From: a virus
Taxonomy: Duplodnaviria; Caudoviricetes
Virus record (IMG/VR): IMGVR_UViG_3300046380_000010
Location: 1-41,625 of that record
Length of the DNA stretch: 41,625 bases
Strand: one strand, 5' to 3'
The position numbers and the translations under genes were made by a program. The notes beneath the pieces are model-generated. The model was not told where the DNA came from, did no database searches, and saw only the letters and a list, made by a program, of their open reading frames with translations. Position 1 is the stretch's first letter. Every line of letters begins with the position of its first letter. Below are positions 29,794-41,625 of this stretch, piece after piece.

Positions 29794-30120
29794 ATGGCAA
29801 CCGTTGGTTCGCCCGTATCCGTCACTTTCCCGACCGTTCTGACCAAAGGTCAGCCGATCACCATTTCCGCCGTCGATCAGGACAACAATCCGACTACCCC
29901 AGTCGGCGTCACATTCTCTTCTGCAAGCCCCGATGTCACCGTTACTCCCGATCCTACGATCCCGTTCCTCTACTTCCTGAAGGGCGTCCCAGGAACTCCC
30001 GTATCTTCTATCGACGTCACTTTCACCGACGCAGCGGGTGATACTGTCGTCGTAACGGCTACCACGCAGGAACCTCCGGCATCCACCACGCTCATCGCCA
30101 CCCCTGGTACTCCCGTATAG
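29794..30120 (+). CDS. Ig-like Thr/Pro/Val-rich virion protein (alternative in-frame TTG start at 29650)
   Basis: AAGGAG RBS; AVDQDNNP...VTFSSASPDVTV resembles bacterial Ig-like domains. Confidence 0.65.
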   Translation: MATVGSPVSVTFPTVLTKGQPITISAVDQDNNPTTPVGVTFSSASPDVTVTPDPTIPFLYFLKGVPGTPVSSIDVTFTDAAGDTVVVTATTQEPPASTTLIATPGTPV

Positions 30121-30143
30121 CGTGGTGGTTCCTGCCCTGATCG

Positions 30144-30180
30144 ACACAGCCCACTTGAAATCAAGTGGGCTGTGTGTTAA
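30144..30180 (+). terminator. Strong hairpin after the structural module, probable terminator
   Basis: ACACAGCCCACTTG-aaat-CAAGTGGGCTGTGT, 14-bp stem; weak U-tract. Confidence 0.6.
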
Positions 30181-30228
30181 ACTAGCTTCATCCGAAAATC
30201 TGAATAGAACGACTAACTGAGGGAAAGT

Positions 30229-30516
30229 ATGCCGCCCACACCCATAGAACTCGCCTTGCTTGCAATCATCATCCCTACCGTAATCAGCGGTATTGCGGCA
30301 TACGGAAAACTGAGGGACGAAATGGCTACACTTCGCGCTGAGATCGTAGCGCTTAAAACCGAAGACACCCGAAACGCAGAGGCTATCAGGCACGAATCAC
30401 GCCGAAACGACGGGCAAGACCTCTCCATCGGAGTGATCCGAGAAACCATGACACGCATCGACACCAACGTAAAAAGCCTGCTGGAAAGAGACAGCAGGCG
30501 CGCGGAAGGACACTGA
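30229..30516 (+). CDS. Single-TM plus coiled-coil protein (holin/lysis candidate)
   Basis: N-terminal hydrophobic helix followed by a coiled coil. Confidence 0.5.
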   Translation: MPPTPIELALLAIIIPTVISGIAAYGKLRDEMATLRAEIVALKTEDTRNAEAIRHESRRNDGQDLSIGVIRETMTRIDTNVKSLLERDSRRAEGH

Positions 30517-30518
30517 AA

Positions 30519-30839
30519 ATGCCAGGATTTAACTTCGGTGGACTACTCGGCGGTCTTCTCTCAGGGGCAGAAGCGCCTATCATACACGGCATTATGCGCG
30601 GAATCGAGTTGGACGCCCAATTCGTCTCTGACTGGATCTGGGCGCAGGAACACTCTTTGTCAGTCGATCCCACGCCGTTGAACGAACTGCTGCCCATCGC
30701 GAAGATGAACGTCTCCGAACTGCTCGGCGCAACAGGCCATCTGCTTCCCACTATCGAAGGCGCAATACTGGGCGGCTCCGATCCCGCCGCTGGTTCACGG
30801 CACGCGTACGAGGTATGGAAGGCGAAGTGGGGTCGCTAA
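30519..30839 (+). CDS. Hypothetical protein
   Basis: AAGGA RBS; 106 aa. Confidence 0.6.
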   Translation: MPGFNFGGLLGGLLSGAEAPIIHGIMRGIELDAQFVSDWIWAQEHSLSVDPTPLNELLPIAKMNVSELLGATGHLLPTIEGAILGGSDPAAGSRHAYEVWKAKWGR

Positions 30840-31393
30840 CGGCAGAAGAAATCTTTTGCCCACTGGAACGGAATGCCTGCGTTAGCCGCACACTGCTCGT
30901 CTTCGGGCCGATCCCCGACCAACAGAGAGGCATCCCAGTCAATCAGGAAACCTGCATAGAAGGCTTCGACTTCCATCAGGACGAGCATTCCCACATCGGG
31001 CTTACGAAGCAGAGACCGTCGATTGTAGGGGAAGCTTGCCTTCTCGCCTTCCATGTGGAAGCAGGATTTAAGGGAGTGAAATGGCCCCATCCCCTGCTCG
31101 CTGCGCTTGAACAATGAGAACATCGCGTCGATTTCGGCATTGACTTGTTCGGGCGTTTTGTAGCCCATCGCAACGCCGCCCTGATTGGTCAGACCGAAGA
31201 TGAGGTATCCAGCGTCCCGATATTCCCAAATCTTCTCTTCGACACCGGGATAGAGCGTCACGTCATCAGGGCCATTGATGAATTTGTTCTCCCCGCGCTT
31301 GCTCAGCCGAACGGTACCGTCCAAGTCCAGGCATAAGGCGGGAACCGTCGAGCCGTTCCATATCACACCGTTGGCAGTTAGTAAGCCTTCCAT
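30836..31393 (-). CDS. HAD-IIIA phosphatase (GmhB/HisB-N/PNKP-like)
   Basis: DLDGT, TNQGG, RKPDVGM and VGDRPED motifs. Confidence 0.88.
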   Translation of the reverse strand: MEGLLTANGVIWNGSTVPALCLDLDGTVRLSKRGENKFINGPDDVTLYPGVEEKIWEYRDAGYLIFGLTNQGGVAMGYKTPEQVNAEIDAMFSLFKRSEQGMGPFHSLKSCFHMEGEKASFPYNRRSLLRKPDVGMLVLMEVEAFYAGFLIDWDASLLVGDRPEDEQCAANAGIPFQWAKDFFCR

Positions 31394-31418
31394 ATCTGAT
31401 TCCTTTCAGGAGTTCCTT

Positions 31419-31658
31419 ATGTCTTCTCCTCAAACTACACACAGTGATAAAGTTGCCGGGTGGTCCATCATCGGCCTCTTCGTGTTAGGCGTCGTAGCGG
31501 TCGTCGTAGGGGCATACGCGCCCCATCTGTCGGCGGCAGGTCAGACCGCCCTGTTTGTCATTGCTGGCAGTTGCGGCTCGGCGGTCGCGGGGAGTCTGGT
31601 CCCTCGTCCGTCAACGCCTCCTGCTCCGCCTGTCGATCCTCCCTCGCCTCTGACGTAG
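31419..31658 (+). CDS. Two-TM holin candidate
   Basis: AGGAG RBS; two hydrophobic helices and a Pro-rich tail; near the endolysin. Confidence 0.55.
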   Translation: MSSPQTTHSDKVAGWSIIGLFVLGVVAVVVGAYAPHLSAAGQTALFVIAGSCGSAVAGSLVPRPSTPPAPPVDPPSPLT

Positions 31659-31679
31659 GGAGGGCGCGGATCAGTTCGG

Positions 31680-31940
31680 CTAATTCTCAGAGGCATCTAA
31701 CCTACCATCGATCTTATAACTAACTCCGTCAGATTTGTAACCCGCTGACTGTTCTTCACGCTGGAACTCTGCCCAATTATCACATTGAACAGCGCACTTC
31801 TCCCGCATCTCCACCCGCCCGCGCTCCTCTGCTTCGCGGATTAACTCCACCAGGTCTTTTGCGTCAAAATCATCTATTGCCCATTCGTGGTTGATAACGA
31901 AATTCTCTACTATCTCCTCCACCGTCAGCTCTTTACTCAT
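31680..31940 (-). CDS. Hypothetical protein
   Basis: GGAGG RBS; EMREKCA..C phage motif. Confidence 0.65.
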   Translation of the reverse strand: MSKELTVEEIVENFVINHEWAIDDFDAKDLVELIREAEERGRVEMREKCAVQCDNWAEFQREEQSAGYKSDGVSYKIDGRLDASEN

Positions 31941-32578
31941 CTCGCAAGAAACCCTCCTCCGTTCCCATTGCTGATGTCTGGGTCGATGCTAATCCCGTTC
32001 CACGTGATCGACATGCCCTGCACGATGTTTGCTTGCGGCTTCCACGCCTCGTACTCTGCCCACCCGGTTGACTGGGCCAGCCATGTGAAGGATACGAGCC
32101 TCAACTCTTTGAGGATACGACAGGTAAGTCCGCTGCCGTAGTCGCCTACCTGGAAGATACCTCCCAGTCGCGGTTCAGGCGAGAGAGCTTCGTGCGTGAA
32201 CGCTTCTTTGATGCCTTGGAAGTACTGAGCAATGCCGCCGCGTATCTGTGCTTCCGTGGCATCGAAGTCCACGGCGAAATAGATCGGGCTGTTGTAGGGC
32301 TGCTGGATCACGTCCACGGCGTAGCGATAGGCCGCTTTGCCGTCTAGGAGGCCCTGTGCGTGCGAGAAATACCCCGCGTGATCCCCAGCGTTCTCGAAGA
32401 CCGCCACGAGGTAGATGCCCATGCCCGACAGGTGGAGTGCTTCCACGCGGGAAAGTTTCGTCTTGGCATGGGAGATCCCGGAGTAGTAGTATCTGGCGCA
32501 GAACTCATACCCGGCATCAAGGATCTGTTGGCCGTGTGCGGTGCAGTCTTGGGTACAATCGAATCCCTTATTGCTCAT
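31937..32578 (-). CDS. Endolysin, DUF1906 (Rv2525c/GH25-like) glycoside hydrolase
   Basis: KGFD, GYEFCARY, L...EA, PIYFAVDFD, G.YGS and W.AQS motifs; start reassigned to MSNKGFD. Confidence 0.85.
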   Translation of the reverse strand: MSNKGFDCTQDCTAHGQQILDAGYEFCARYYYSGISHAKTKLSRVEALHLSGMGIYLVAVFENAGDHAGYFSHAQGLLDGKAAYRYAVDVIQQPYNSPIYFAVDFDATEAQIRGGIAQYFQGIKEAFTHEALSPEPRLGGIFQVGDYGSGLTCRILKELRLVSFTWLAQSTGWAEYEAWKPQANIVQGMSITWNGISIDPDISNGNGGGFLAR

Positions 32579-32727
32579 GTCCTTCTCCCTGACGGATTGC
32601 TGGAAGTGAACCCGTCTGACTCCTTGAACCCCATTACGCAGTAGCCGTCTTTGACACCGAACTGATCGCCGTGGAGTATGTACGTAACCTCTACGGGAAT
32701 ACATCGCGCCCTCTGCTCTGGTGTCAT
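32575..32727 (-). pseudogene. 50-aa ORF resembling the C-terminal half of a DUF3850/ASCH domain
   Basis: VEVTYILHGDQFGVKDGYCVMG; coupled to both neighbours. Confidence 0.5.
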
Positions 32728-33068
32728 TATACGTCCACCTTCTCCTCTCCCACATTGCGCGGATCGAAGGTTGACAGGCGTTCCCGATGCTCCCCCTCCC
32801 TAAGTTGATTAATCTCTGTTCGGATATGCACCAGAGGTTGAGTTACGTATTCCCAACTCTCAGGATTCTCCGGGTAGAGTATCCCCCACAGGGCCGTATT
32901 GATCTCATTGATAGTCCGCCCGTAATCCTCTGACTGAGCCTGCGCCCTCTGGTATCCGCGCTCCTCCACCTTTTCTAGTATTTTTTCAAGCCTCGCCCTC
33001 CATTCGGTTTCATTGGCTCTGAAACTATATGCTATTTCGAACAGAGTCGTTTGATTGGTAACTTCCAT
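32727..33068 (-). CDS. Hypothetical protein
   Basis: 113-aa ORF in the early operon; GGAGG RBS. Confidence 0.65.
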   Translation of the reverse strand: MEVTNQTTLFEIAYSFRANETEWRARLEKILEKVEERGYQRAQAQSEDYGRTINEINTALWGILYPENPESWEYVTQPLVHIRTEINQLREGEHRERLSTFDPRNVGEEKVDV

Positions 33069-33275
33069 CTAACTCACCTCCTGCAAGGTTGGAACATGCT
33101 CATCCTGCTCCGTCGCCATGTTGGAAAGAATAAGGTTCTCGAATACCAGTGTCTCAGAGGCTATCTCCAGCGCGCGCTGCTTCTGCGGTATAGGGTCCCG
33201 CATGAAATCCGATGCTGCCTGCCACACCACATTCTTCGCAAGCGTTACCTTCGCCCTCTGATCTCTCAAACTCAT
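33069..33275 (-). CDS. Hypothetical protein
   Basis: AAGGGAG RBS; 68 aa. Confidence 0.65.
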   Translation of the reverse strand: MSLRDQRAKVTLAKNVVWQAASDFMRDPIPQKQRALEIASETLVFENLILSNMATEQDEHVPTLQEVS

Positions 33276-33317
33276 CGTCTGTCTCCCTTCTCTGCTAACT
33301 GATTACCACTAAAACAG

Positions 33318-33352
33318 GCATACTCTTCTCTGGAGAATTATGCTTTTTGTTT
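33318..33352 (+). terminator. Possible intrinsic terminator for + strand transcripts
   Basis: Imperfect GCATA..TTCTC/GAGAA.TATGC stem followed by TTTTTGTTT. Confidence 0.35.
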
Positions 33353-33360
33353 GCTTCCTA

Positions 33361-33592
33361 ACTGAACTACGATGAGTAGTACCGCGCAGGTTCGTACAGG
33401 GGCGCGGTTCCACTGATTACCTCAACATTCGCCACAAGGTACATAGGCCACGGTTTTACTCCCTTACCCGCTGGGAGGCTATACCGGGATTCCGCCCGGT
33501 CGGTTTTGTCGGCTCTCTGAACGGAATGCTCTGGCTCCATAAATGGAGGGGTTGTCCGGTGCAGGCGCAACACACAGCAAACCGACAAAAAC
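33361..33592 (-). ncRNA. Putative structured ncRNA
   Basis: Stems TTTTGTCGGTT/AGCCGACAAAA, CTCCAT/ATGGAG, ACCGGG/CCCGGT, CTCCC/GGGAG and ACCGCGC/GCGCGGT; ends in a 16-nt copy of the tRNA-like 5' end. Confidence 0.55.
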
Positions 33593-33602
33593 AGAAACAT
33601 AT

Positions 33603-33908
33603 TTAGCCGTCGCCGGAGCCGTAGCCGTAGCCGGAGCCGGAGCCGCCGCCGGCTCCGTAGCCGGAGCCGGCTACGGAGCCGTAGCCGTCGCCGTAGCCGT
33701 AGCCGGAGCCGGCTCCGTAGCCGTAGCCGGCTCCGGCTCCGTCGCCGTAGCCGTAGCCGTAGCCGGCTCCGTAGCCGGAGCCGGAGCCGTAGCCGGAGCC
33801 GTAGCCGGAGCCGGAGCCGTAGCCGGAGCCGTAGCCGGAGCCGTAGCCGGAGCCGTAGCCGGAGCCGGAGCCGTAGCCGGAGCCGTCGCCGGATTTTACG
33901 CCTTCCAT
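33603..33908 (-). CDS. Gly-rich (G-Y/S/D/A)n repeat protein
   Basis: AAGGAG/AAGGA before ATG 33908; MEGVKSGDGSGYGSG...; 6-bp GGCTAC/GGCTCC tandem units. Confidence 0.6.
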   Translation of the reverse strand: MEGVKSGDGSGYGSGSGYGSGYGSGYGSGYGSGSGYGSGYGSGSGYGAGYGYGYGDGAGAGYGYGAGSGYGYGDGYGSVAGSGYGAGGGSGSGYGYGSGDG

Positions 33909-34192
33909 TCCTTGACTCCTTTGATAATCTCCTCTGCCTCGGTGGTCGTGTCGATCACCTCGATGACTTCCAGCACAGTGATGCTGACAGGAACGGCGAA
34001 TTTGCAGTCGTTCGGAAGCGACGTGCCGTGTATCGCCAGCCCGGAGAGGGACGCTGCTCCTGCCCAATACCAGAGCCGCCGCGCATTTTCAAGCCGTGCT
34101 TCCTGTCCTTCACGCGAAACCAGTGTTCCTGAAAAACAGCCTGCGTTTTGCGTCCGAACGATTACATACTTACCGATCTGAGTGTCTGACAT
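33896..34192 (-). CDS. DUF6948-like small phage protein
   Basis: IGKYVIVRT..AG.F.G.L.....E..L.NARRLWYWAGAASLS.LA..G signature. Confidence 0.8.
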   Translation of the reverse strand: MSDTQIGKYVIVRTQNAGCFSGTLVSREGQEARLENARRLWYWAGAASLSGLAIHGTSLPNDCKFAVPVSITVLEVIEVIDTTTEAEEIIKGVKEWKA

Positions 34193-34230
34193 TTCTCTCT
34201 GTCTCCTTCTGTTGTTCTCTCTAAACGAAA

Positions 34231-34318
34231 CGTACCCTGCAAACTCTGATACTGAAGGGAGACGAAGCCGATCCAGGTGAGTTCACAGGGTACGCAGGAG
34301 TGGCAGAGAGTGAGCCAC
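34231..34318 (-). ncRNA. Structured 5' leader of the DUF6948-like gene
   Basis: GTGGC/GCCAC hairpin, then a long CGTACCCTG..AACTC/GAGTT..CAGGGTACG stem. Confidence 0.45.
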
Positions 34319-34373
34319 GACTGTTAAATTGTATCTTCGTATCACCTGGGTCAAACTAGCTTCGTCTACAGTA

Positions 34374-34402
34374 AATATACCCGCTATTCAGTTTTTGTGC
34401 AA
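34374..34402 (-). promoter_or_regulatory. Sigma70-like promoter
   Basis: TTGCAC, 17 nt, TATATT; same -35 as the 2309 promoter. Confidence 0.55.
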
Positions 34403-34420
34403 CCCTACGCCAACTCTTTT

Positions 34421-34564
34421 TCAGGAACGAGGAAATATTCGGTGCGCTCCGGCACCGTGTTCGTGGATGCGAAAGCATATTGGGCAGCAAAGCACAATCA
34501 GGTTCCAGAGTAGCCCGTCCGCACTCTTCTCTGCAAACGCCTGCACCTCTCGAATGTCAGACAT
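34421..34564 (-). CDS. Small CPxC..HxHGAG protein; short paralog of 35637-35855
   Basis: AAGGAGG RBS; MSDIREVQA...CPICFRIHEHGAG. Confidence 0.6.
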   Translation of the reverse strand: MSDIREVQAFAEKSADGLLWNLIVLCCPICFRIHEHGAGAHRIFPRS

Positions 34565-34688
34565 CAGATTCCTCCTTGATATGCTCGACAACCCCTTGTG
34601 CATCTGGTTTGCCCCACTTACGATCCTTATTGATTTCGAACTTTTCGTGCGCAACTGCTTCGAGATCAATTTGATTTCGGAAGCATAG
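34557..34688 (-). pseudogene. C-terminal remnant of a DUF550/MazG-like nucleotide pyrophosphohydrolase
   Basis: Frame reads IDLEAVAHEKFEINKDRKWGKPDAQGVVEHIKE, preceded by an in-frame TAG and no start codon. Confidence 0.55.
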
Positions 34689-34726
34689 CTAACGCCATAA
34701 CATCTTGCTTTCCCATGTTCATTCTC

Positions 34727-35635
34727 CTATGGCATCTGACATCGGATGACAGCGACCGTAAACAGGTCGCCCTCTTTGAGACACATACCCGCAGGTACGA
34801 TGCACCGAACGTGATCTATCTCCGGGTCTATGGTTCGCACCGCATGATTGAACAGGATCACAGGCCGTCCATTGTCCATCATTACAGGCGCTACGGCCCT
34901 CGTAGGAGGCTGATAGGTTCCCTGCTGGACGGTATCGCCCTCCACCTTGAACGAAGTCACAGGAGCAGAGAAGAACGATTCTTCCGGTGGTGCCAATGCC
35001 TTCGCCTTCTCAATGCAGGACATGCACAGAGTCCCATCATCGCCGCACGGCTCTCCACACTCGCACCACGGCCCCGGATTTACCGTGTTCGGAGCAGGAG
35101 GTAAAGCAGGCGTTTCAGGCTTGTATTCTGCCTCTATAACATTGTTATCATGTTGCAGCAAATCGTCCACGTGGACGATTTGAGATCGTTTTGCCGATAT
35201 TTTGGCATTTTGTGTGTCTTCATCCCATCTCTGAAGAATCGATTTGATGTGTTCGACAGTTCTGATTTTCTTCTGCTTGTACTGCTTGATGAGTTCGAGT
35301 TTTTGTTCCTTCGGTCTGGCGTAAGTCAATTTGTAGTGCGACCATGACCAACCTACGCTCTGGTCATATACCCACTCTCTTGCGATCTTCATACACTCCA
35401 TCATAAAGATAGCGCGCTCCCCGAAATGCTTCTCGCAGAAAGCGAATTTATCTCCATGCTCCAGGGGGACTTCAAGTAGAGTATTGCCAATCTCGAACCG
35501 TACAGCGACCGTCAATCCTGTTTCCAGGTTGAGGAGTTCACCAAGGTACTTTTTGTATTCCGGCATCGTCGGATTGTCCGAAGAGGGAACCGTAGTCAGC
35601 CCCAGACTGTGTATCTTCAAAACCAGATCGTTCAT
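34727..35635 (-). CDS. Hypothetical protein, possible DNA-binding regulator; paralog of 2730-3407
   Basis: 302 aa; RFEIGN..HGDK..GWSWSHY; internal CECG...CMSC. Confidence 0.75.
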   Translation of the reverse strand: MNDLVLKIHSLGLTTVPSSDNPTMPEYKKYLGELLNLETGLTVAVRFEIGNTLLEVPLEHGDKFAFCEKHFGERAIFMMECMKIAREWVYDQSVGWSWSHYKLTYARPKEQKLELIKQYKQKKIRTVEHIKSILQRWDEDTQNAKISAKRSQIVHVDDLLQHDNNVIEAEYKPETPALPPAPNTVNPGPWCECGEPCGDDGTLCMSCIEKAKALAPPEESFFSAPVTSFKVEGDTVQQGTYQPPTRAVAPVMMDNGRPVILFNHAVRTIDPEIDHVRCIVPAGMCLKEGDLFTVAVIRCQMP

Positions 35636-35636
35636 G

Positions 35637-35855
35637 CTATGATTTTCCCTTCACCATCAAATACGCACCTTTGAAGCACGGCGCATTGACTGACCTGTAC
35701 ATGCTCTCTATCGGAACGTCGTGCCCTCGGACGACCACTCCAGCACCGTGCTGATGCTTTCGACCGCAATACGGACACTCATTGACGACCAGCCACCACT
35801 TCCCGTCAACGTTTATCGCCGCTGCTTCCACCTTCGGAATATCGCTCAATTTCAT
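35637..35855 (-). CDS. Small Zn-binding protein (CPYC..HQHGAG)
   Basis: AAGGAG RBS; 72 aa. Confidence 0.7.
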   Translation of the reverse strand: MKLSDIPKVEAAAINVDGKWWLVVNECPYCGRKHQHGAGVVVRGHDVPIESMYRSVNAPCFKGAYLMVKGKS

Positions 35856-35888
35856 CTCCTTTCAAAGCACTTTGTGAAACATAGTGTA

Positions 35889-36034
35889 GCCCTTCGGGCC
35901 TGAGACTCACTCTCCCAACTCTCTCCCTCCCTCTGGCTGTAGGTTTGGGAACTTGCGTTCTTTGCCTACATTTCAGCCGTCGGTCGGTCGGTCGCAGTCT
36001 TCGTTCGCTCACCGCCTTTGTCAGAGCAAGGCGG
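35889..36034 (-). ncRNA. Structured RNA downstream of the tRNA-like element
   Basis: CCGCCTT/AAGGCGG hairpin; GGCTG..TGTAGG..GAAC-GCAA-GTTC..CCTACAGCC stem with GNRA loop; GCCC/GGGC hairpin. Confidence 0.5.
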
Positions 36035-36046
36035 AACCCCTTCAAT

Positions 36047-36150
36047 TCCCATCGGCAGGATTTGAACCTGCGAGTTCCCGCCATTGGCCCAATCGGATTG
36101 TACATATCCTATGCGGCGGCGGACGTTCTACCAGACTGAACTACGATGAG
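36047..36150 (-). tRNA. tRNA-like RNA with enlarged anticodon arm; identity undetermined
   Basis: Acceptor CTCATCG/CGATGGG, U8-A9, D-arm GTTC-AGTCTGGTA-GAAC, stem TCCGCC/GGCGGG enclosing 35 nt, variable loop AACTC, T-arm GCAGG-TTCAAAT-CCTGC; no encoded CCA. Confidence 0.75.
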
Positions 36151-36160
36151 CCAAACAGAA

Positions 36161-36289
36161 ACACACCTCCGAAATCATGACTAGTGAGGATCGGAGGTGT
36201 GTCGTAGACCACTGCGCTTGCGACGCCGGTCATTCTTCACGGTATGAAATTCTGTGTACCCTCACTAGTCGTATTCATTATACACAGAA
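36161..36289 (-). ncRNA. Double hairpin with complementary (kissing) loops
   Basis: 9-bp and 12-bp perfect stems whose loops contain GACTAGTGAGG and CCTCACTAGTC. Confidence 0.7.
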
Positions 36290-36308
36290 CTCTGATTTTT
36301 GGCAACCC

Positions 36309-36635
36309 TCAGTAACCGTACGGCTTCGTGATGTCGTAATCCTTGTCGATATTGCTCTCCTTCTTGCCTTCAACCACCGTCCTCATCGCCGCATCGAAAG
36401 CCGCATCCTGTGGCGTCTTCTGCTCCGATGGCAGGGGAGGGAAGGGGTCTGAATCGTCGATCAGATCACGTACAAGACAGACTTTCTTGCCCGTACCATC
36501 CCTTTGGAGTTGATACACCGCTTTATGTCCTAAATTGATCAGTGTATAGAACCGCTTGTTGGTTAGGACAAGGCTTGCGCTCAGGGTGGCGAGGTTCCCA
36601 TCGTGGAAATAGACCTCACTGCGTTTGGTTGTCAC
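36309..36635 (-). CDS. Hypothetical protein
   Basis: GAGGAG RBS with GTG start (TTKRSEVYF...). Confidence 0.55.
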   Translation of the reverse strand: MTTKRSEVYFHDGNLATLSASLVLTNKRFYTLINLGHKAVYQLQRDGTGKKVCLVRDLIDDSDPFPPLPSEQKTPQDAAFDAAMRTVVEGKKESNIDKDYDITKPYGY

Positions 36636-36951
36636 TTCCCGACTCCTCTCTGCCGGAAACAATATCCCAGAACAACGGATTATTGGCTTTTGGTTTGTCT
36701 CCTGACGGTCCTGAGATGACGGGTATGGGCAGGCTTCTTGAGTCGTTGAAATAGCCCACGATGTAGTCTCTGCCTGCAACGCGCTCTAGCCAGCAGTGCC
36801 GCGTGTAGTATGGTCCTTCTCCCCGCACCGCTTCGAGTGCTTTCTCAGGATTCTGCTCCGTCACGTCGATGGTGTTCCACGGATCTAATCCCTTTACCAG
36901 TTGACTGTTTGTCTTCAGAGTGGCGCCTCTCGGAATCGCTCGTTTTGCCAT
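36616..36951 (-). CDS. Hypothetical protein
   Basis: AAGGAG upstream; TAATG coupling; MAKRAIPRG... Confidence 0.6.
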   Translation of the reverse strand: MAKRAIPRGATLKTNSQLVKGLDPWNTIDVTEQNPEKALEAVRGEGPYYTRHCWLERVAGRDYIVGYFNDSRSLPIPVISGPSGDKPKANNPLFWDIVSGREESGSDNQTQ

Positions 36952-37337
36952 TATCTTAATGACTCCTTCCTTTCCATGATCCTCCCGACTGACTCTATCA
37001 CCCAGTCCAGCCCTTGCGGGATGAGGTAGATACTGGATCTGTGCGCGCTCCATGCCCGGAACAGGTTGCACAGGCTCTCCTCTGCCTCCTGCGCCGTTTT
37101 GAACTCGATCAGCAGTCCTGTCTCGTCTCCTGCCTTGTAATAGATTCCCACGGTATAGATGCTGTCTTCGTACCACTCCTGAGACTCTTTTCTTACCGAT
37201 CCGTCAGGATTGATACCCTTCCATTCGGAGTCTTTGACCATGCATTCAAGGGGGCGGCAGTCCACCCAGAGATGCCTCAGATCATCCAGACACACAAAAC
37301 AGAGAGGTTTCCCAAGGTGTTTGATCTTTACCCACAT
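36951..37337 (-). CDS. Hypothetical protein
   Basis: GAGG RBS; overlaps the methylase stop. Confidence 0.6.
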   Translation of the reverse strand: MWVKIKHLGKPLCFVCLDDLRHLWVDCRPLECMVKDSEWKGINPDGSVRKESQEWYEDSIYTVGIYYKAGDETGLLIEFKTAQEAEESLCNLFRAWSAHRSSIYLIPQGLDWVIESVGRIMERKESLR

Positions 37338-37951
37338 GCTATACCTCTGGAATTTGCCTCGAATACAGCGCGCGCAAACCCTTCAGGGGTCTGGCTGCGC
37401 AAATTCGACCTTTCTGATGAGGGAGGCAAAAGGTGCATTTTGCTACCTTCTCCCGGTATCACTCTGCGCTTCTTCGGAAATACAAACCCTCCTCCCGTCC
37501 ATAGGCATGTCTTCTTTGTGTAGGCGTCTCCATTGGGATTTAGATACCCGCCGAAGTCGCATGGATCGAATGAGTAGTCAGGCTTTCTCCAGTAGGTTGA
37601 CAGAGTGCTTACCGGGTTTTCCACCATGTACGGAGCCTCTGTCCATTCGCATATCTTGCGCGCCGCTTCCACAATGCCGATTGCTTCATGGAGAGCTGAC
37701 AATCCTTTTTCCTCAAACCACCTCGCCCCACTGACTGCAAGGTGCGTACACGGAGGGAAAGCGAAGCAGATTGCATACTCTCCGCGCGGCGGTAAGTAGT
37801 TGCGAATGTCTGCGTTGACAAACTCAATCCCCCCTCTGTAACCGTTCACGTGCTGCGTGTCTACGCATACACAACGATAGCCTGCATCTGCCCAAGGGCG
37901 CACCATGATTGCAGTACGGTCGCACAGGCTGATAACTATTTGAGGTTTCAT
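37328..37951 (-). CDS. Short phage Dcm-like C5-cytosine DNA methyltransferase
   Basis: FAFPPCT catalytic motif IV, ENPV motif VI, YTKKTCLW and RS.TP.GFA motif X. Confidence 0.8.
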   Translation of the reverse strand: MKPQIVISLCDRTAIMVRPWADAGYRCVCVDTQHVNGYRGGIEFVNADIRNYLPPRGEYAICFAFPPCTHLAVSGARWFEEKGLSALHEAIGIVEAARKICEWTEAPYMVENPVSTLSTYWRKPDYSFDPCDFGGYLNPNGDAYTKKTCLWTGGGFVFPKKRRVIPGEGSKMHLLPPSSERSNLRSQTPEGFARAVFEANSRGIACG

Positions 37952-38967
37952 GTCGCTATCGGCTCCTTCGGACTGGTGACGCGCATCGCCTTGATGCAGT
38001 TGACGAGTTCGCCTTTGGGAAGCGCGGCGGCGTCGAGGAAGTCCTGCGTTGTCCAGGCGTCAGGGTTCAGTTTCGGGTTGATAACTAACAGCATCTCCTT
38101 GTACATCGCCACGTTCGCCGATTCCCATCCGGCCTCTGCCATCTGCGCCTTCAGGAGTGCGGACGCCTGCGCCTTGTTGACGGTCGGAGCGGGCTGCGCG
38201 TCCTGTACCTCTCCGCTCTCCTGCACTTCGGCAGGACGGTATTCCGCCTCGTATGTGTCCTGATGCGGCGGGGTGGGTCGCTGCGGCCTCTGCTCCTCCA
38301 TGTCCTGTGTGAAGAACTCAGAGCCGCCGACGGTGTTCAGGCAGACTGCGACGAACGCTCTCTTTTCCGCCATCTTTAGAAAGGTGTTCACTTTGTCGCA
38401 GATGTCCGGGTCCGGGATCTGCCCGACAGGTTGCGCTTCGATCTGCCTCCAGAGATCACTGTTCTGCCCGAACGTTGCCCCACATCCCTCGATCTTCTTC
38501 CAACAGTAGAAGGAAGGATTGTCCTTTGAGCGGTTGATCGTCGGCTTGCCACAGTTAGGGCATGTCTTCTTCAGGGGAATGTACCGATACTTCTTCTCCC
38601 AGCTATTACACGAGCCGTCGGCGTCTCCCATGAACTTCTCGCCCCGATAGACCGAGCATTTGATGAGGTAGTAGAAGAAGGGTTCTCCGCCGTGGTCTGC
38701 CCCCGTCCAGTCCTCGATTTTGTCCACGACGGTGTAACGAGCCGACATGCCGAACGCCTTGATAAGCTTTTCGGCACCCGACTTGTACAGCACCTTTTTC
38801 TTCGTGCCGGGCAGCACGCCATAGTCGCCTTCGCCGTTCTCGCCTTCCATTAGAATACGCGATGCATAATCGTTCATCATGTCGCGACGCGCTATCGCCT
38901 CGTCAACCGTCATCACTGGCAGATAGTTGTCTGCCTCCGTCCGTACAACCAATTTCATATCAGACAT
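37948..38967 (-). CDS. Putative ssDNA-annealing/recombination protein with Zn-ribbon insert
   Basis: DYGVLPGTKKKVLYKSGAEKL, GSCNSWEKKY, NT.LKMAEKRA.V and FTQD.E motifs. Confidence 0.65.
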   Translation of the reverse strand: MSDMKLVVRTEADNYLPVMTVDEAIARRDMMNDYASRILMEGENGEGDYGVLPGTKKKVLYKSGAEKLIKAFGMSARYTVVDKIEDWTGADHGGEPFFYYLIKCSVYRGEKFMGDADGSCNSWEKKYRYIPLKKTCPNCGKPTINRSKDNPSFYCWKKIEGCGATFGQNSDLWRQIEAQPVGQIPDPDICDKVNTFLKMAEKRAFVAVCLNTVGGSEFFTQDMEEQRPQRPTPPHQDTYEAEYRPAEVQESGEVQDAQPAPTVNKAQASALLKAQMAEAGWESANVAMYKEMLLVINPKLNPDAWTTQDFLDAAALPKGELVNCIKAMRVTSPKEPIAT

Positions 38968-39258
38968 TTGTTTCCCCCCCTCTGCTCTCCCGAGAGCCTT
39001 CATTGAAAGTTCATCGGCAATCTCTTGTAGTCTCCAGTAGTCGTCACACTTCTCGTCATGTGAGCATTGCCAGCACGATGCGTCGTGAGTAAATACCCGC
39101 ATGTGTTCCTTCAGAGCCTTATACATGTCCGGCGCGGCTTTCAACTTGTGTAGCATCTCATCCCCGCAAAAGCATTGCGCGACCGTGTGACCATCGTCAA
39201 AGCAGAGGAAGGTTCCATTGCCTCCGCGAGATATTTCCAGTTCGTCATTTTTGCTCAT
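38968..39258 (-). CDS. AAPDM..AL-type small phage protein, in frame with the downstream gene and lacking a stop
   Basis: GAGGAG RBS and ATGA coupling at 39258; ends KALGRAEG at a G7 run. Confidence 0.6.
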
Positions 39259-39809
39259 ATCCCATGCTCCTCTTTCAGTCTTGCGACTGCTGCCTGCCCG
39301 ACCTTTGCCAGTCGGGCCTCCGTGATTGCTCTCTCTGTCGCCTGCACTGCCGCCCAGACTTCCTCCCACGACCGGCAGATGTAGCTGCCGCCCCGGTCGC
39401 ATAGCGCCTGCTGTGCCTCTCTGACGGGCGTAGAAGAGCCTTTTAGCTCCACGGCGACAAATACCCCTACCGGCCACTCTTTGCCGCGTATAAACAGGTC
39501 TGGCAGTCCTGGCGTGTTGCCCTGCCATCCGGGATGAGGGAGGACGTTGCCGCATTTGCCGCAAGTTTGCCCTCCGCGTGGCTTTCCTGTCTCCATCACC
39601 TCGTATCCCTCGAACTTCAGGCGATCGATAACCCCCTGTTGGAGGTCGGCCTCCAATACCTTTTCTTTCGGTGCGGCTTGCCTCTCGTATCCTTTTACGT
39701 GTTCGGCGTTGGTCTTTGTGGTCCCGTAGCTGCATCCGGGCTCCATGCAGACGAGCAGGTATCCCATTGGAGTGAGGGCGACTTTGTGAATTGGGCATAT
39801 CGCTGTCAT
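39255..39809 (-). CDS. VRR-NUC / PD-(D/E)xK nuclease
   Basis: LEADLQ..V, PGLPDL, VELK, Q and RSWEEV motifs. Confidence 0.8.
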   Translation of the reverse strand: MTAICPIHKVALTPMGYLLVCMEPGCSYGTTKTNAEHVKGYERQAAPKEKVLEADLQQGVIDRLKFEGYEVMETGKPRGGQTCGKCGNVLPHPGWQGNTPGLPDLFIRGKEWPVGVFVAVELKGSSTPVREAQQALCDRGGSYICRSWEEVWAAVQATERAITEARLAKVGQAAVARLKEEHGI

Positions 39810-40045
39810 CGCTTGCTCACCTCCTGATAGATTTGCGTGATTACGACACACAGTCCGGTGGCGCCGATCAGCACGCAGAACAGAAACCAGCAGAGCCGGT
39901 CCCGGCGCGCCTGCCTCTCCTGGCCCCTGAGCGTCTCCCTCTCGCGCCTGCGGGTCTGCTGCTGCACGATCTCGGTTGTGCTGTTGGGCCACTTTTCTTC
40001 GTCGTAGGTAAAGCCCTGTGATGGGCTGCCGTCGATGTCATTCAC
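39806..40045 (-). CDS. Small membrane protein
   Basis: C-terminal hydrophobic helix; AAGGAG RBS. Confidence 0.65.
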   Translation of the reverse strand: MNDIDGSPSQGFTYDEEKWPNSTTEIVQQQTRRRERETLRGQERQARRDRLCWFLFCVLIGATGLCVVITQIYQEVSKR

Positions 40046-40484
40046 CGTCGTTCTCCTTTTTGGGGTAGATGCCGCCGTTTCGGATCTCTCCAGGGTTCAG
40101 TCCATCTATGATGAGTTTGCCGAGCGAATCCAGAGAAAATACTGTCACGTCGGCGAATGAGTAGCATTTGCCTCCTCCTGCGAAATGGACGATACTGAGG
40201 TATTCATCCGACGCGCCACGACAGGTAAACAGCAGTCCATCGATCTCGCAGACCATAACGATAAGGCCGGCTGTACCGGTGTTGGATGCAAATGCGGGAA
40301 TGGAGTGGACGGCGATCCTGCTCACATCGATGTCGAGAGTGTTCGTGCAGAGCGTTCTCAGATGCTCGATATGCGCCTGCCTTGCTTTCGACGCTGCTTC
40401 TGCCTCTTCGTGCCTTTTGCGCTCCTGTGCTGCCTCGTAGGAGGCAATAGCGCGTTGTTTTAGTGTTTGTGGTATGCTGTTCAT
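40038..40484 (-). CDS. Hypothetical protein
   Basis: AAGGA RBS before MNSIPQTL... Confidence 0.65.
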   Translation of the reverse strand: MNSIPQTLKQRAIASYEAAQERKRHEEAEAASKARQAHIEHLRTLCTNTLDIDVSRIAVHSIPAFASNTGTAGLIVMVCEIDGLLFTCRGASDEYLSIVHFAGGGKCYSFADVTVFSLDSLGKLIIDGLNPGEIRNGGIYPKKENDGE

Positions 40485-40517
40485 GCAAGCACAATCCTTT
40501 CTGTTCTGTATCACTTC

Positions 40518-40545
40518 CCCGGCCCTCAAGAGCCGGGGCTTTTTC
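40518..40545 (+). terminator. GC hairpin with U-tract on the + strand
   Basis: CCCGGC-cctcaaga-GCCGGG-gc-TTTTT. Confidence 0.5.
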
Positions 40546-40858
40546 ATGCTCTCAGTGCGAGAGAGATCAGGCTGTCGCGTACGCTCAGGGAGGGACTACC
40601 GAAGGGGGAGAGATCCCCACCCGCCTCTTTTGCCTGATTGTAGAGTTCTCCTAGTAGGTCAGCCCGTGCTGATAAATAGGTCCGCGTGATTTCTGCTTCA
40701 TGAGTTTCACTCTCAATCAGTGCTGCCCCCTCTTCCCATTTGTCCCTATCGTTGTCATATAGAGGATATATCGCCTCCCATTTCTCCGCGTTGTCGGCGA
40801 TGACAGCCTCGTAATCGGCCCTTGCTTTACGATACGTTGCTTTGGTTATCGGTCGCAT
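40544..40858 (-). CDS. Hypothetical protein
   Basis: GGGAGG RBS; 104 aa. Confidence 0.65.
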   Translation of the reverse strand: MRPITKATYRKARADYEAVIADNAEKWEAIYPLYDNDRDKWEEGAALIESETHEAEITRTYLSARADLLGELYNQAKEAGGDLSPFGSPSLSVRDSLISLALRA

Positions 40859-41063
40859 TCTTTGCCTCCCTAGCTTTCTTCCGCATGTCGCTGTTCATCG
40901 CCTGCTCGATGAGATGACTGACGAACAGACTCTCGCCTCCGAACTGCTGCGCCTGTGTCTCTACCCACTCCTTGACGGGTTGTCGGACCCGTGTGTGGAT
41001 GATACTACCCCGCAGTAGAGAAGGCGCTTTGCGGGGCTTCTCTCTCCAATTCGCTGATGTCAT
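40827..41063 (-). CDS. Putative ribbon-helix-helix DNA-binding protein
   Basis: IHTRV...VKEWV...A...G..S.FV..LIEQAM pattern; GAGGAG RBS. Confidence 0.55.
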   Translation of the reverse strand: MTSANWREKPRKAPSLLRGSIIHTRVRQPVKEWVETQAQQFGGESLFVSHLIEQAMNSDMRKKAREAKNATDNQSNVS

Positions 41064-41072
41064 TGGTTCTCC

Positions 41073-41300
41073 TCAGTGGAATAATCTGGCACACGTTTTA
41101 CAAACCTGTTCCGATTGGAACTCCTCTGCCAGTTGGTCAAGGGAACGCATTGCCGAGTTCGTAAATTTCTCGACCGAAACCCCAAATCGACGATTGCAGA
41201 GTGTTGTGAGAGTTGTCGGAGGTTGATCCTCGTACCCCTGTTCAGACCAAATGGCATGTACCCTACCGCCGATCCTTTTTCGCCATACTCCAAATCTCAT
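41073..41300 (-). CDS. Hypothetical protein (H..C..CxxC)
   Basis: ATGA coupling to the SAA-repeat gene stop. Confidence 0.6.
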   Translation of the reverse strand: MRFGVWRKRIGGRVHAIWSEQGYEDQPPTTLTTLCNRRFGVSVEKFTNSAMRSLDQLAEEFQSEQVCKTCARLFH

Positions 41301-41625
41301 GCGTTTGCCCCTTCCAGCCTCAGCAATTCGAGGAGTGTGTCAGCCTCCCATTCGTGATAGGCCGACTCTGCCGCCGACCATGCCGCCGCCCGTGCCGACC
41401 ATGCCGCCGACCATGCCGCCGCCCGTGCCGACCATGCCGCCGCCCGTGCCGACCATGCCGCCGACCATGCCGCCGCCCATGCCGCCGACTCTGCCGCCGA
41501 CCATGCCGCCGACCGTGCCGCCGACCGTGCCGACCGTGCCGCCGACTCTGCCGCCGACTCTGCCGCCGACCGTGCCGCCGACCCGGCCGACCCTGCCGCC
41601 GACTCAGCCGAAGACTCTGCCGACG
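41297..41625 (-). CDS. C-terminal part of the SAA-repeat protein
   Basis: ...SAAWSARAAAWSAAESAYHEWEADTLLELLRLEGANA-stop; in frame with 1-585 across the 76-bp end overlap. Confidence 0.85.
   Translation of the reverse strand, partial: SAESSAESAAGSAGSAARSAAESAAESAARSARSAARSAAWSAAESAAWAAAWSAAWSARAAAWSARAAAWSAAWSARAAAWSAAESAYHEWEADTLLELLRLEGANA
41360..41625. repeat. Tandem 12/9-bp repeats encoding SAAW/SAAE/SAAR/AAAW
   Basis: Directly visible. Confidence 0.95.

What the first reader, a model, noticed from the sequence alone, without database searches (positions are those of the whole stretch)
36047..36150. tRNA body with a ~30-nt extension of the anticodon arm
Seen: canonical acceptor, D and T arms, but 35 nt inside the anticodon stem. 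These can fold as GCC/GGC plus a GGAT/ATCC hairpin with a 7-nt loop ATGTACA, resembling a displaced U-GUA (Tyr) anticodon loop. The insert is far too short for a group I intron and is not an evident bulge-helix-bulge. Inference: a tRNA mimic or decoy against anticodon nucleases, a Y-RNA-like molecule, or a new small intron.
Basis: partly seen in the sequence, partly recalled or inferred. Interest (0 to 1): 0.8.

Follow-up and report, generated by a model that had tools for sequence, protein, structure and literature searches.

The report
Proline-tRNA look-alike that cannot decode
A small soil phage carries one tRNA-shaped gene, likely derived from a proline tRNA, whose codon-reading loop is swollen by 30 extra bases so it is predicted not to read codons; it likely makes a stable tRNA look-alike of a kind already annotated in phage T5, and likely serves as a decoy for host tRNA-binding proteins, though a recently broken tRNA gene is not excluded.

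Summary
In detail: on the minus strand (36150-36047) an intact acceptor, D and T arm enclose 35 nt inside the anticodon stem. The tyrosine reading fails. The body is a phage tRNA-Pro(UGG): the old U33-UGG-G37 seems to survive inside the insert, and removing two pieces (25 and 5 nt) in a script gives an ARAGORN score equal to real Pro tRNAs. No single excision restores a tRNA, there is no bulge-helix-bulge, no Ro60 gene, and the insert folds no better than its shuffles. It is the phage's only tRNA-like gene, 130 nt behind a near-consensus promoter with three operator-like repeats; its first 16 bases recur 2.8 kb downstream in a leader predicted to hide a start codon. No homologue of the insert was found, so selection on this copy is untested. 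The design is common: 68 of 101 similar viral tRNA bodies are not restorable, one subfamily shows strong covariation, T5 RNA1/RNA2 are annotated examples, and this scan has reported the class before on other DNA. Best reading: a non-decoding, host-matured tRNA mimic (0.5); rival: recent pseudogene (0.28).

The parts
36047..36150 (-). tRNA-Pro-derived RNA gene with extended anticodon arm (104 nt, no encoded CCA)
36144..36150 (-). acceptor stem 5' strand (C1); pairs with 36054-36048 (G72), discriminator A73 at 36047: bacterial tRNA-Pro identity elements
   Evidence: PMC11229370 passages
36125..36141 (-). D arm, 4 of 4 pairs, A14 G18 G19 A21 present; pair 11-24 is U-A where three phage Pro tRNAs have C-G
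36118..36123 (-). anticodon stem 5' strand (27-31) plus C32; pairs with 36082-36077
36093..36117 (-). inferred 25-nt insertion between positions 32 and 33; holds the 4-bp hairpin (36109-36095), a 14-bp palindrome with one extra base
36088..36092 (-). likely remnant of U33-UGG-G37 (Pro anticodon) inside the arm
   Evidence: chance in shuffled insert 0.026, any Pro type 0.077
36083..36087 (-). inferred 5-nt insertion at 37/38, the reverse complement of the five bases ending one base before it (covers the old anticodon)
   Evidence: sequence
36055..36076 (-). variable loop (C instead of G at 46) and T arm, the T arm identical to that of phage Tourach tRNA-Pro
36277..36305 (-). sigma-70-type promoter, 11 of 12 consensus bases, best of 7 sites in 30000-41625
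36176..36320 (.). three copies of a 16-bp operator-like motif (36305-36320 -, 36258-36273 -, 36176-36191 +) around and behind the promoter
   Evidence: 3 matches, 0 of 100 shuffles reach 3; role inferred
36161..36202 (-). 12-bp perfect leader hairpin ending 10 nt before the RNA's first base
33361..33376 (-). exact second copy of the RNA's first 16 bases, 2774 bp downstream in a non-coding stretch
33270..33278 (-). 9-nt complement of the second copy's start; holds the ATG of ORF 33275-33069 (68 aa) and is predicted to be paired (p 0.96-1.0)

Best explanation
This is a tRNA-shaped phage gene, likely descended from a tRNA-Pro(UGG), with an intact body and a 30-nt longer anticodon arm, that likely yields a stable non-decoding RNA and likely acts as a decoy for host proteins that recognise the tRNA shape. 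Shown: the cloverleaf body, the Pro-type acceptor end (C1-G72, A73), the insert, the absence of a restorable anticodon loop by one cut, the promoter consensus 130 nt upstream, and that it is the only tRNA-like gene in the 41.6-kb phage. Inferred: it is the first element of an early, probably repressor-controlled operon; host RNase P, 3' trimming and CCA addition cut it out, as they do for engineered tRNA scaffolds with a replaced anticodon stem-loop; it is poorly charged because G35/G36 are out of place, and it cannot fit the decoding site. The job (soaking up a tRNA-attacking defence protein or another elbow/acceptor binder early in infection) is the weakest step, about 0.4 given that the RNA is functional; serving as a cut-here signal in the early transcript is the next most likely job.
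For: Body as sound as working tRNAs: with the two inferred pieces removed in a script ARAGORN gives tRNA-Pro(tgg) 120.4 against 119.2-121.1 for three real phage Pro tRNAs. Two separate insertions seem needed, which implies time since decoding was lost while 16 of 16 stem pairs of acceptor, D and T arms stayed paired. Near-consensus promoter. Class evidence: of 101 distinct viral tRNA bodies with a long arm and intact acceptor and T stems, 68 are not restorable by one excision; in a 13-member subfamily (0 of 13 restorable) 98.6% of cells pair and 6 of 7 acceptor pairs change on both sides, so anticodon-less tRNA shapes are kept by selection in phages. T5 RNA1 and RNA2 are annotated 'tRNA-like stable RNA with unknown functions' and fold on the same plan; the KVP40 pseudo-tRNA region is matched over at least 80% in 49 of 82 matching phage records. 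Scaffold precedent: PMC3753655 passages. Phage tRNAs from strong promoters counter tRNA-cutting defences: PMC11555353 abstract.
Against: No homologue of this insert, leader or trailer among 192 loci (best insert match E 0.83), in GenBank phages (0 of 466 matching records cover 80%) or in five phages sharing a neighbour gene (0 of 5 have any tRNA): selection on this copy is not shown, and it carries neither conserved insert motif of the class. The insert folds no better than shuffles. Three drifts from the Pro relatives (U2.G71, U27.G43, C46) fit relaxed selection. The two-insertion history rests on a 5-base match (chance 0.03-0.08). In a precursor with 45 nt or more of trailer or the whole leader the cloverleaf is not the predicted fold (acceptor pair p 0-0.17), though 3 of 15 T5 tRNAs and Tourach tRNA-Pro behave the same. 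In PMC11555353 the protecting tRNAs are complete, decoding ones. No binding partner is identified in the phage.
Confidence: 0.5

Rival explanations
1. A recently broken tRNA-Pro(UGG) gene: slippage and template switching lengthened the anticodon loop, the body has not yet had time to decay, and the RNA has no job.
For: Orphan insert; insert fold at chance level; insert begins with a CCG/CGC stutter and contains two palindromes, one an exact inverted copy of adjacent bases, as template switching would leave; three small drifts in the body; the second copy of the 5' end at 33376 looks like a further decayed duplicate.
Against: All acceptor, D and T pairs intact after what look like two events; ARAGORN-level score of a working tRNA; the same design is under clear selection in another phage subfamily.
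Confidence: 0.28
2. A regulatory pair: the RNA and the leader of ORF 33275-33069 share their first 16 bases and an acceptor-like stem, so one factor binds both; the abundant RNA would titrate it, or its 5' fragment would pair with the start codon and control that gene.
For: The 16-mer is the only exact repeat of 16 nt or more in the window outside the low-complexity terminal repeat; 0 of 300 Markov-shuffled windows give one; it starts exactly at tRNA position 1; a 9-nt complement 60-140 nt downstream occurs at 70 of 11000 positions; the span is 107 against 104 nt; the AUG is predicted paired.
Against: Site 2 has no T arm and no Rfam match at gathering score; in the predicted two-molecule fold (-66.9 against -61.0 kcal/mol) the AUG stays paired, so strand exchange does not switch the gene on; only 3 of 123 other long-arm loci show a 5' repeat of 12 nt or more, all upstream (flanks mostly 0.3-2.5 kb, too short to see a 2.8-kb spacing); the repeat may simply be a recombination or duplication scar like PeSL cassettes (PMC2839356 abstract). 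The insert has no antisense target above shuffles.
Confidence: 0.1
3. A pre-tRNA: an unknown processing route removes 25 nt at 32/33 and 5 nt at 37/38 and yields a working tRNA-Pro(UGG), like the 'enigmatic' tRNA introns of Lak phages.
For: The two-piece product scores as a perfect tRNA-Pro; CCA is the phage's rarest Pro codon (36 of 347 in 11 ORFs); Lak phages have predicted tRNA introns (PMC6784885 passages).
Against: No single excision works, whereas 19 of 22 metagenome/genome hits, mostly archaeal intron tRNAs, pass the same test; the arm has a 4-nt bulge and a 3-bp helix, not 3-4-3; a 5-nt intron has no precedent that I recall; no splicing endonuclease or RNA ligase family among the ORFs scanned, only a HAD phosphatase with a PNK3P match; ARAGORN's own intron call (Arg-CCG, 21 nt) uses a shifted stem and scores 91.5.
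Confidence: 0.07
4. A Y-RNA-like tether for a Ro60 (Rsr) protein.
For: Bacterial and phage YrlA RNAs carry a tRNA-like domain on a long stem (PMC4201824 passages).
Against: No TROVE/Ro60 match in 53 ORFs; no GNCGAA motif in the RNA; free ends are in the acceptor stem, not permuted as in YrlA; no YrlA match in Rfam at E up to 10.
Confidence: 0.03

Closest known systems
Phage T5 RNA2 and RNA1 (NC_005859 32959-33083 and 30501-30644; annotated 'tRNA-like stable RNA with unknown functions')
   Same: Acceptor stem, D-like arm and T arm around a long folded arm in place of the anticodon loop; no usable anticodon.
   Different: No sequence similarity found (one search included the T5 locus); T5's are 125 and 144 nt, have an extra hairpin before the T arm and lie in a large tRNA cluster; this one is 104 nt, has a fully canonical D arm and variable loop, and is the only tRNA-like gene of a 41.6-kb phage. 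Stability is annotated for T5, untested here.
Phage tRNA-Pro(UGG) genes (Mycobacterium phage Tourach gene 109, T4, T5)
   Same: C1-G72, A73, D loop, anticodon stem 28-31/39-43 and whole T arm; best three of 31 tRNAs compared; 34 of the 40 listed BLAST hits are annotated tRNA-Pro.
   Different: 37-nt instead of 7-nt loop; U2.G71, U27.G43 and C46.
KVP40 tRNA-Pseudo-4 and other long-arm phage tRNA bodies (subfamilies with a hairpin-ACAGCAA insert or a GG-UGAAG-GACC insert)
   Same: Intact tRNA body, long arm, often not restorable.
   Different: This RNA has neither conserved insert motif and no relative.
Predicted tRNA introns of Lak megaphages (PMC6784885)
   Same: Unexplained inserts in phage tRNA anticodon regions, no shown splicing in the passages read.
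   Different: There, isotype and anticodon could be predicted with one intron and the introns are identical across cohorts; here no single excision works.
Engineered tRNA scaffolds (PMC3753655)
   Same: Acceptor, D and T arms with the anticodon stem-loop turned into an insertion site.
   Different: Man-made; shows that such RNAs can be matured and stable in E. coli, not that this one is.
T4 species 1 RNA (rnaC) and YrlA Y RNAs
   Same: Non-decoding RNAs with a tRNA-like T arm.
   Different: rnaC has no canonical D arm in the predicted fold; YrlA is permuted and lies beside Ro60.

Membership tests
Decoding tRNA-Pro | C1-G72 pair and A73 | tested here: met
   PMC11229370 passages
Decoding tRNA-Pro | 7-nt loop with U33 and G35/G36 at the tip of a 5-bp stem | tested here: not met
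   37-nt loop region
Displaced tRNA-Tyr anticodon mimic | Y32-U33-GUA-R37 loop and Tyr-type body | tested here: not met
   loop has A32 and C37; body score against T5 Tyr 2.0, against Pro 33.5
Single-intron tRNA (any type) | one excision restores stem, Y32-U33-NNN-R37 and a 4-5-nt variable loop | tested here: not met
   positive controls pass (19 of 22 metagenome/genome hits); shuffled inserts pass in 18%
Bulge-helix-bulge intron | 3-nt bulge, 4-bp helix, 3-nt bulge; splicing endonuclease | tested here: not met
   4-nt bulge and 3-bp helix; no endonuclease family in scanned ORFs; BHB geometry recalled
Group I intron | catalytic core of well over 100 nt | tested here: not met
   30 extra nt; no Rfam intron match at E up to 10; size limit recalled
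YrlA Y RNA | Ro60 gene within 4 kb, GNCGAA motif, permuted tRNA-like domain | tested here: not met
T5 RNA1/RNA2-type tRNA-like stable RNA | tRNA body with a long arm and no usable anticodon | tested here: met
T5 RNA1/RNA2-type tRNA-like stable RNA | accumulates as a discrete stable RNA | not testable with these tools
   no RNA holder listed
T5 RNA1/RNA2-type tRNA-like stable RNA | shape kept by selection across relatives | tested here: inconclusive
   no homologue of this copy; shown only for another subfamily
Integration-site tRNA fragment (att scar) | complete and partial tRNA copies at the ends of an element with an integrase | tested here: not met
   partial copy is a 5' piece lying downstream; no integrase family among scanned ORFs and no joint across the 2774 bp in X1 or X2; PMC9897764 passages

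The most novel reading that the evidence does not exclude
The phage turned a proline tRNA into a two-part control device: an abundant tRNA-shaped decoy made first from a repressor-controlled promoter, and a tRNA-mimicking translational operator 2.8 kb downstream that shares its first 16 bases and acceptor stem and hides a start codon, so that one tRNA-recognising host or phage protein gates an early gene and is titrated by the decoy.
Probability: 0.1. Interest if true: 0.78.

Novelty: new variant of a known kind. Interest (0 to 1): 0.38.

Why it matters
Anticodon-less tRNA-shaped RNAs are annotated in T5 as stable RNAs of unknown function and are usually dismissed as pseudo-tRNAs; the searches here show they are common in phages and, in one subfamily, kept by selection. 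This copy is a compact test case: one such gene in a small phage, a traceable tRNA-Pro parent, its own strong promoter and a matching leader downstream. If it is a decoy it would point to a host defence that reads the tRNA elbow or Pro acceptor end rather than the anticodon. Without relatives, host or RNA data it adds an example, not a mechanism.

Tried and rejected
Leader pattern: 0 matches. The 16-mer: 7 viral matches, none tRNA-like. Expression: no RNA holder listed; X2 does not cover the gene. Antisense immunity RNA of the P4 CI or P1 c4 type (recalled): best complement of the insert 14 nt with G.U, within the 12-16 of 40 shuffles; no Rfam match. Kissing dimer through the loop palindrome: predicted duplex -13.6 kcal/mol, untested, not used. 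Leader pseudoknot: the 11-nt inverted repeat is better explained as the third operator-like copy; my duplex calculation for it failed. Theta/HDV ribozyme in the trailer: no Rfam match. Atlas look-up of the 68-aa ORF: nothing above 0.79. Literature: ten searches listed no paper that describes this RNA class or T5 RNA1/RNA2; PMC7162821 has no 'intron' passage and PMC3014915 no 'species 1' passage. Older subscription papers on T4 and T5 stable RNAs are outside the library, and no supplements were read (the Lak intron table could bear on the comparison).

Full report
Setting. The window is a whole 41,625-base virus record held by a soil metagenome run that may be its source. It encodes a terminase, P22-like portal, SU10-like capsid and adaptor, an Rv2525c-like hydrolase, a DNA methyltransferase and a HAD phosphatase, so it is a small tailed phage, by promoter, ribosome-binding sites and lysin most likely of a bacterium (inference). 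The finding lies in a non-coding gap of the minus-strand early region.

Observation. The RNA runs 36150 to 36047 on the minus strand. Rfam scores it as tRNA at 45.4 bits with an insert in the anticodon loop, the only gathering-level match in the window; ARAGORN misses it. Acceptor (7 of 7), D (4 of 4) and T (5 of 5) stems pair, A73 is present, CCA is not encoded.

Parent. The body is a phage tRNA-Pro(UGG). Of 40 listed BLAST hits 34 are annotated tRNA-Pro; the top three of 31 T4, T5 and Tourach tRNAs are Pro (33.5, 20.5, 13.0; T5 Tyr 2.0). Against Tourach tRNA-Pro the T arm and most of the anticodon stem are identical, and MAFFT places the Pro loop core U33-UGG-G37 on 36092-36088 inside the insert, leaving a 25-nt piece at 32/33 and a 5-nt piece at 37/38. 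That 5-base match arises in 2.6% of shuffled inserts (7.7% for any Pro anticodon), so it is likely, not certain. The 5-nt piece is the reverse complement of the bases just before it. Removing both pieces in a script gives ARAGORN tRNA-Pro(tgg) 120.4, against 119.2-121.1 for three real ones. C1-G72 and A73 are the main bacterial Pro identity elements, with G35/G36 also needed (PMC11229370, passages). The Tyr-like loop has the wrong bases at 32 and 37 and sits on a non-Tyr body; I reject it. Three drifts from the Pro relatives (U2.G71, U27.G43, C46) cut the other way and may show relaxed selection.

Not an ordinary intron, not a Y RNA. No single excision restores a stem with Y32-U33-NNN-R37; 19 of 22 metagenome and genome hits, mostly archaeal intron tRNAs, pass that test, and shuffled window inserts pass in 18%. 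The arm has a 4-nt bulge and a 3-bp helix, not a bulge-helix-bulge. ARAGORN's intron mode forces Arg-CCG on a shifted stem (score 91.5). No splicing endonuclease, RNA ligase, integrase or TROVE family was matched in the ORFs scanned (53, 25 and 30 proteins). YrlA needs Ro60 nearby, a GNCGAA motif and a permuted layout (PMC4201824, passages); none is met.

Surroundings. A promoter with 11 of 12 consensus bases lies at 36305-36277, the best of 7 in 30000-41625. A 16-bp motif occurs three times: just upstream of it, at the start site and inverted 80 nt downstream; 0 of 100 shuffles give three. I read these as repressor sites (inference). A 12-bp hairpin ends 10 nt before the RNA. The RNA's first 16 bases recur exactly at 33376-33361, the only exact repeat of that length outside the low-complexity terminal gene (0 of 300 Markov shuffles). 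There the copy pairs (p 0.96-1.0) with nine bases that hold the start codon of a 68-aa ORF, closing a 107-nt unit; such a complement occurs at 70 of 11000 positions. Site 2 has a degenerate D loop and no T arm. It may be a decayed paralogue, a recombination repeat like PeSL cassettes (PMC2839356, abstract), or a regulatory element; the predicted strand exchange leaves the AUG paired, and no excision joint is seen in X1 or X2 contigs.

The class. Patterns for a D arm and T loop 45-75 nt apart gave 27, 3, 24, 12 and 119 loci. Of 156 distinct matches (window included) 128 have intact acceptor and T stems; after dropping 4 with an inner T loop, 124 remain: 101 viral, 22 from metagenomes or genomes, and this one. 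Of the 101, 33 are restorable by one excision and 68 are not. Fifty carry a loosely defined hairpin-ACAGCAA insert, among them KVP40's annotated pseudo-tRNA; 13 carry another motif, none restorable, with 98.6% of cells paired and 6 of 7 acceptor pairs changed on both sides, above all 500 shuffles and all slid controls. The patterns select for intact D and T motifs, but not for the acceptor stem. T5 RNA1 and RNA2, annotated as tRNA-like stable RNAs of unknown function, fold on the same plan. Earlier notes of this scan describe many such RNAs on other DNA; they are leads, not support. The window's RNA belongs to neither motif subfamily and has no relative.

Mechanism. Most likely (0.5) the gene is transcribed first from the early promoter, cut out by host RNase P and 3' trimming, given CCA, and persists as a tRNA-shaped RNA that is poorly charged and cannot decode; engineered scaffolds of this layout are matured and stable in E. 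coli (PMC3753655, passages). The job I favour is a decoy for a host protein that recognises the tRNA elbow or Pro acceptor end; phages do use strongly expressed tRNAs against tRNA-cutting defences (PMC11555353, abstract), but those are complete tRNAs, so this step is an analogy. Against maturation, long precursors are not predicted to keep the cloverleaf, but 3 of 15 T5 tRNAs and Tourach tRNA-Pro fail the same way and the cloverleaf holds with up to 30 nt of trailer. Rivals: recent pseudogene 0.28, regulatory pair with site 2 0.1, two-piece splicing 0.07, Y-RNA-like 0.03.

Verdict. Ten literature searches listed no paper describing the class, but older subscription papers and supplements were not visible. 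Interest 0.38.

Noticed in passing
window 36176-36320: Three 16-bp operator-like copies around the strongest early promoter; ORF 40827-41063 (78 aa) looks by eye like a ribbon-helix-helix protein and could be the repressor, but matched no family.
   Followed up: partly
window 33270-33376 (-): Second copy of the RNA's first 16 bases in a leader predicted to bury the start codon and part of the ribosome-binding site of an orphan 68-aa ORF; a 7-bp hairpin ends 4 nt before it.
   Followed up: yes
L006, L014, L077, L087, L106, L127, L170, L173, L176 and about 40 more: Subfamily of phage tRNA bodies with a hairpin followed by ACAGCAA; in 16 of 50 one excision, mostly near positions 27-32, restores normal arms of different isotypes, which suggests a mobile insert or intron family in phage tRNAs.
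   Followed up: partly
L085, L098, L116, L122, L123, L132, L133, L146, L149, L166, L172, L177, L182 (alignment A4): Anticodon-less subfamily with a conserved T-loop-like insert motif and freely covarying acceptor stems.
   Followed up: partly
L021:1490-1599: tRNA-Pro(TGG) with a normal anticodon arm but about 30 extra bases in the variable loop.
   Followed up: no
L033 and L067: Archaeal-type intron-containing tRNA-Ile genes have a 12-14-nt copy of their own 5' end about 125 nt upstream.
   Followed up: no
L086: A 26-nt copy of the long-arm RNA's 5' end lies 288 nt upstream, perhaps a paralogue with a longer insert.
   Followed up: no
window 35880-36046 (-): Structured trailer: a 7-bp hairpin 13 nt after A73, whose 5' side can also pair with the anticodon stem and variable loop, and a second stem ending in CCTACAGCC; no Rfam match.
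   Followed up: partly
window 33603-33907 (-) and both contig ends: Gly-Ser-Tyr repeat ORF right after a DUF6948 gene, and an Ala-Trp-Ser repeat gene that spans the contig ends, which suggests a circularly complete genome.
   Followed up: no
L189:3744-3780: abiF RNA motif (RF03085, 47.7 bits) in a phage that shares the 339-aa neighbour gene.
   Followed up: no
window 30836-31393 (-): HAD-IIIA phosphatase with a PNK3P match (E 7.6e-10) but no kinase or ligase partner found.
   Followed up: partly
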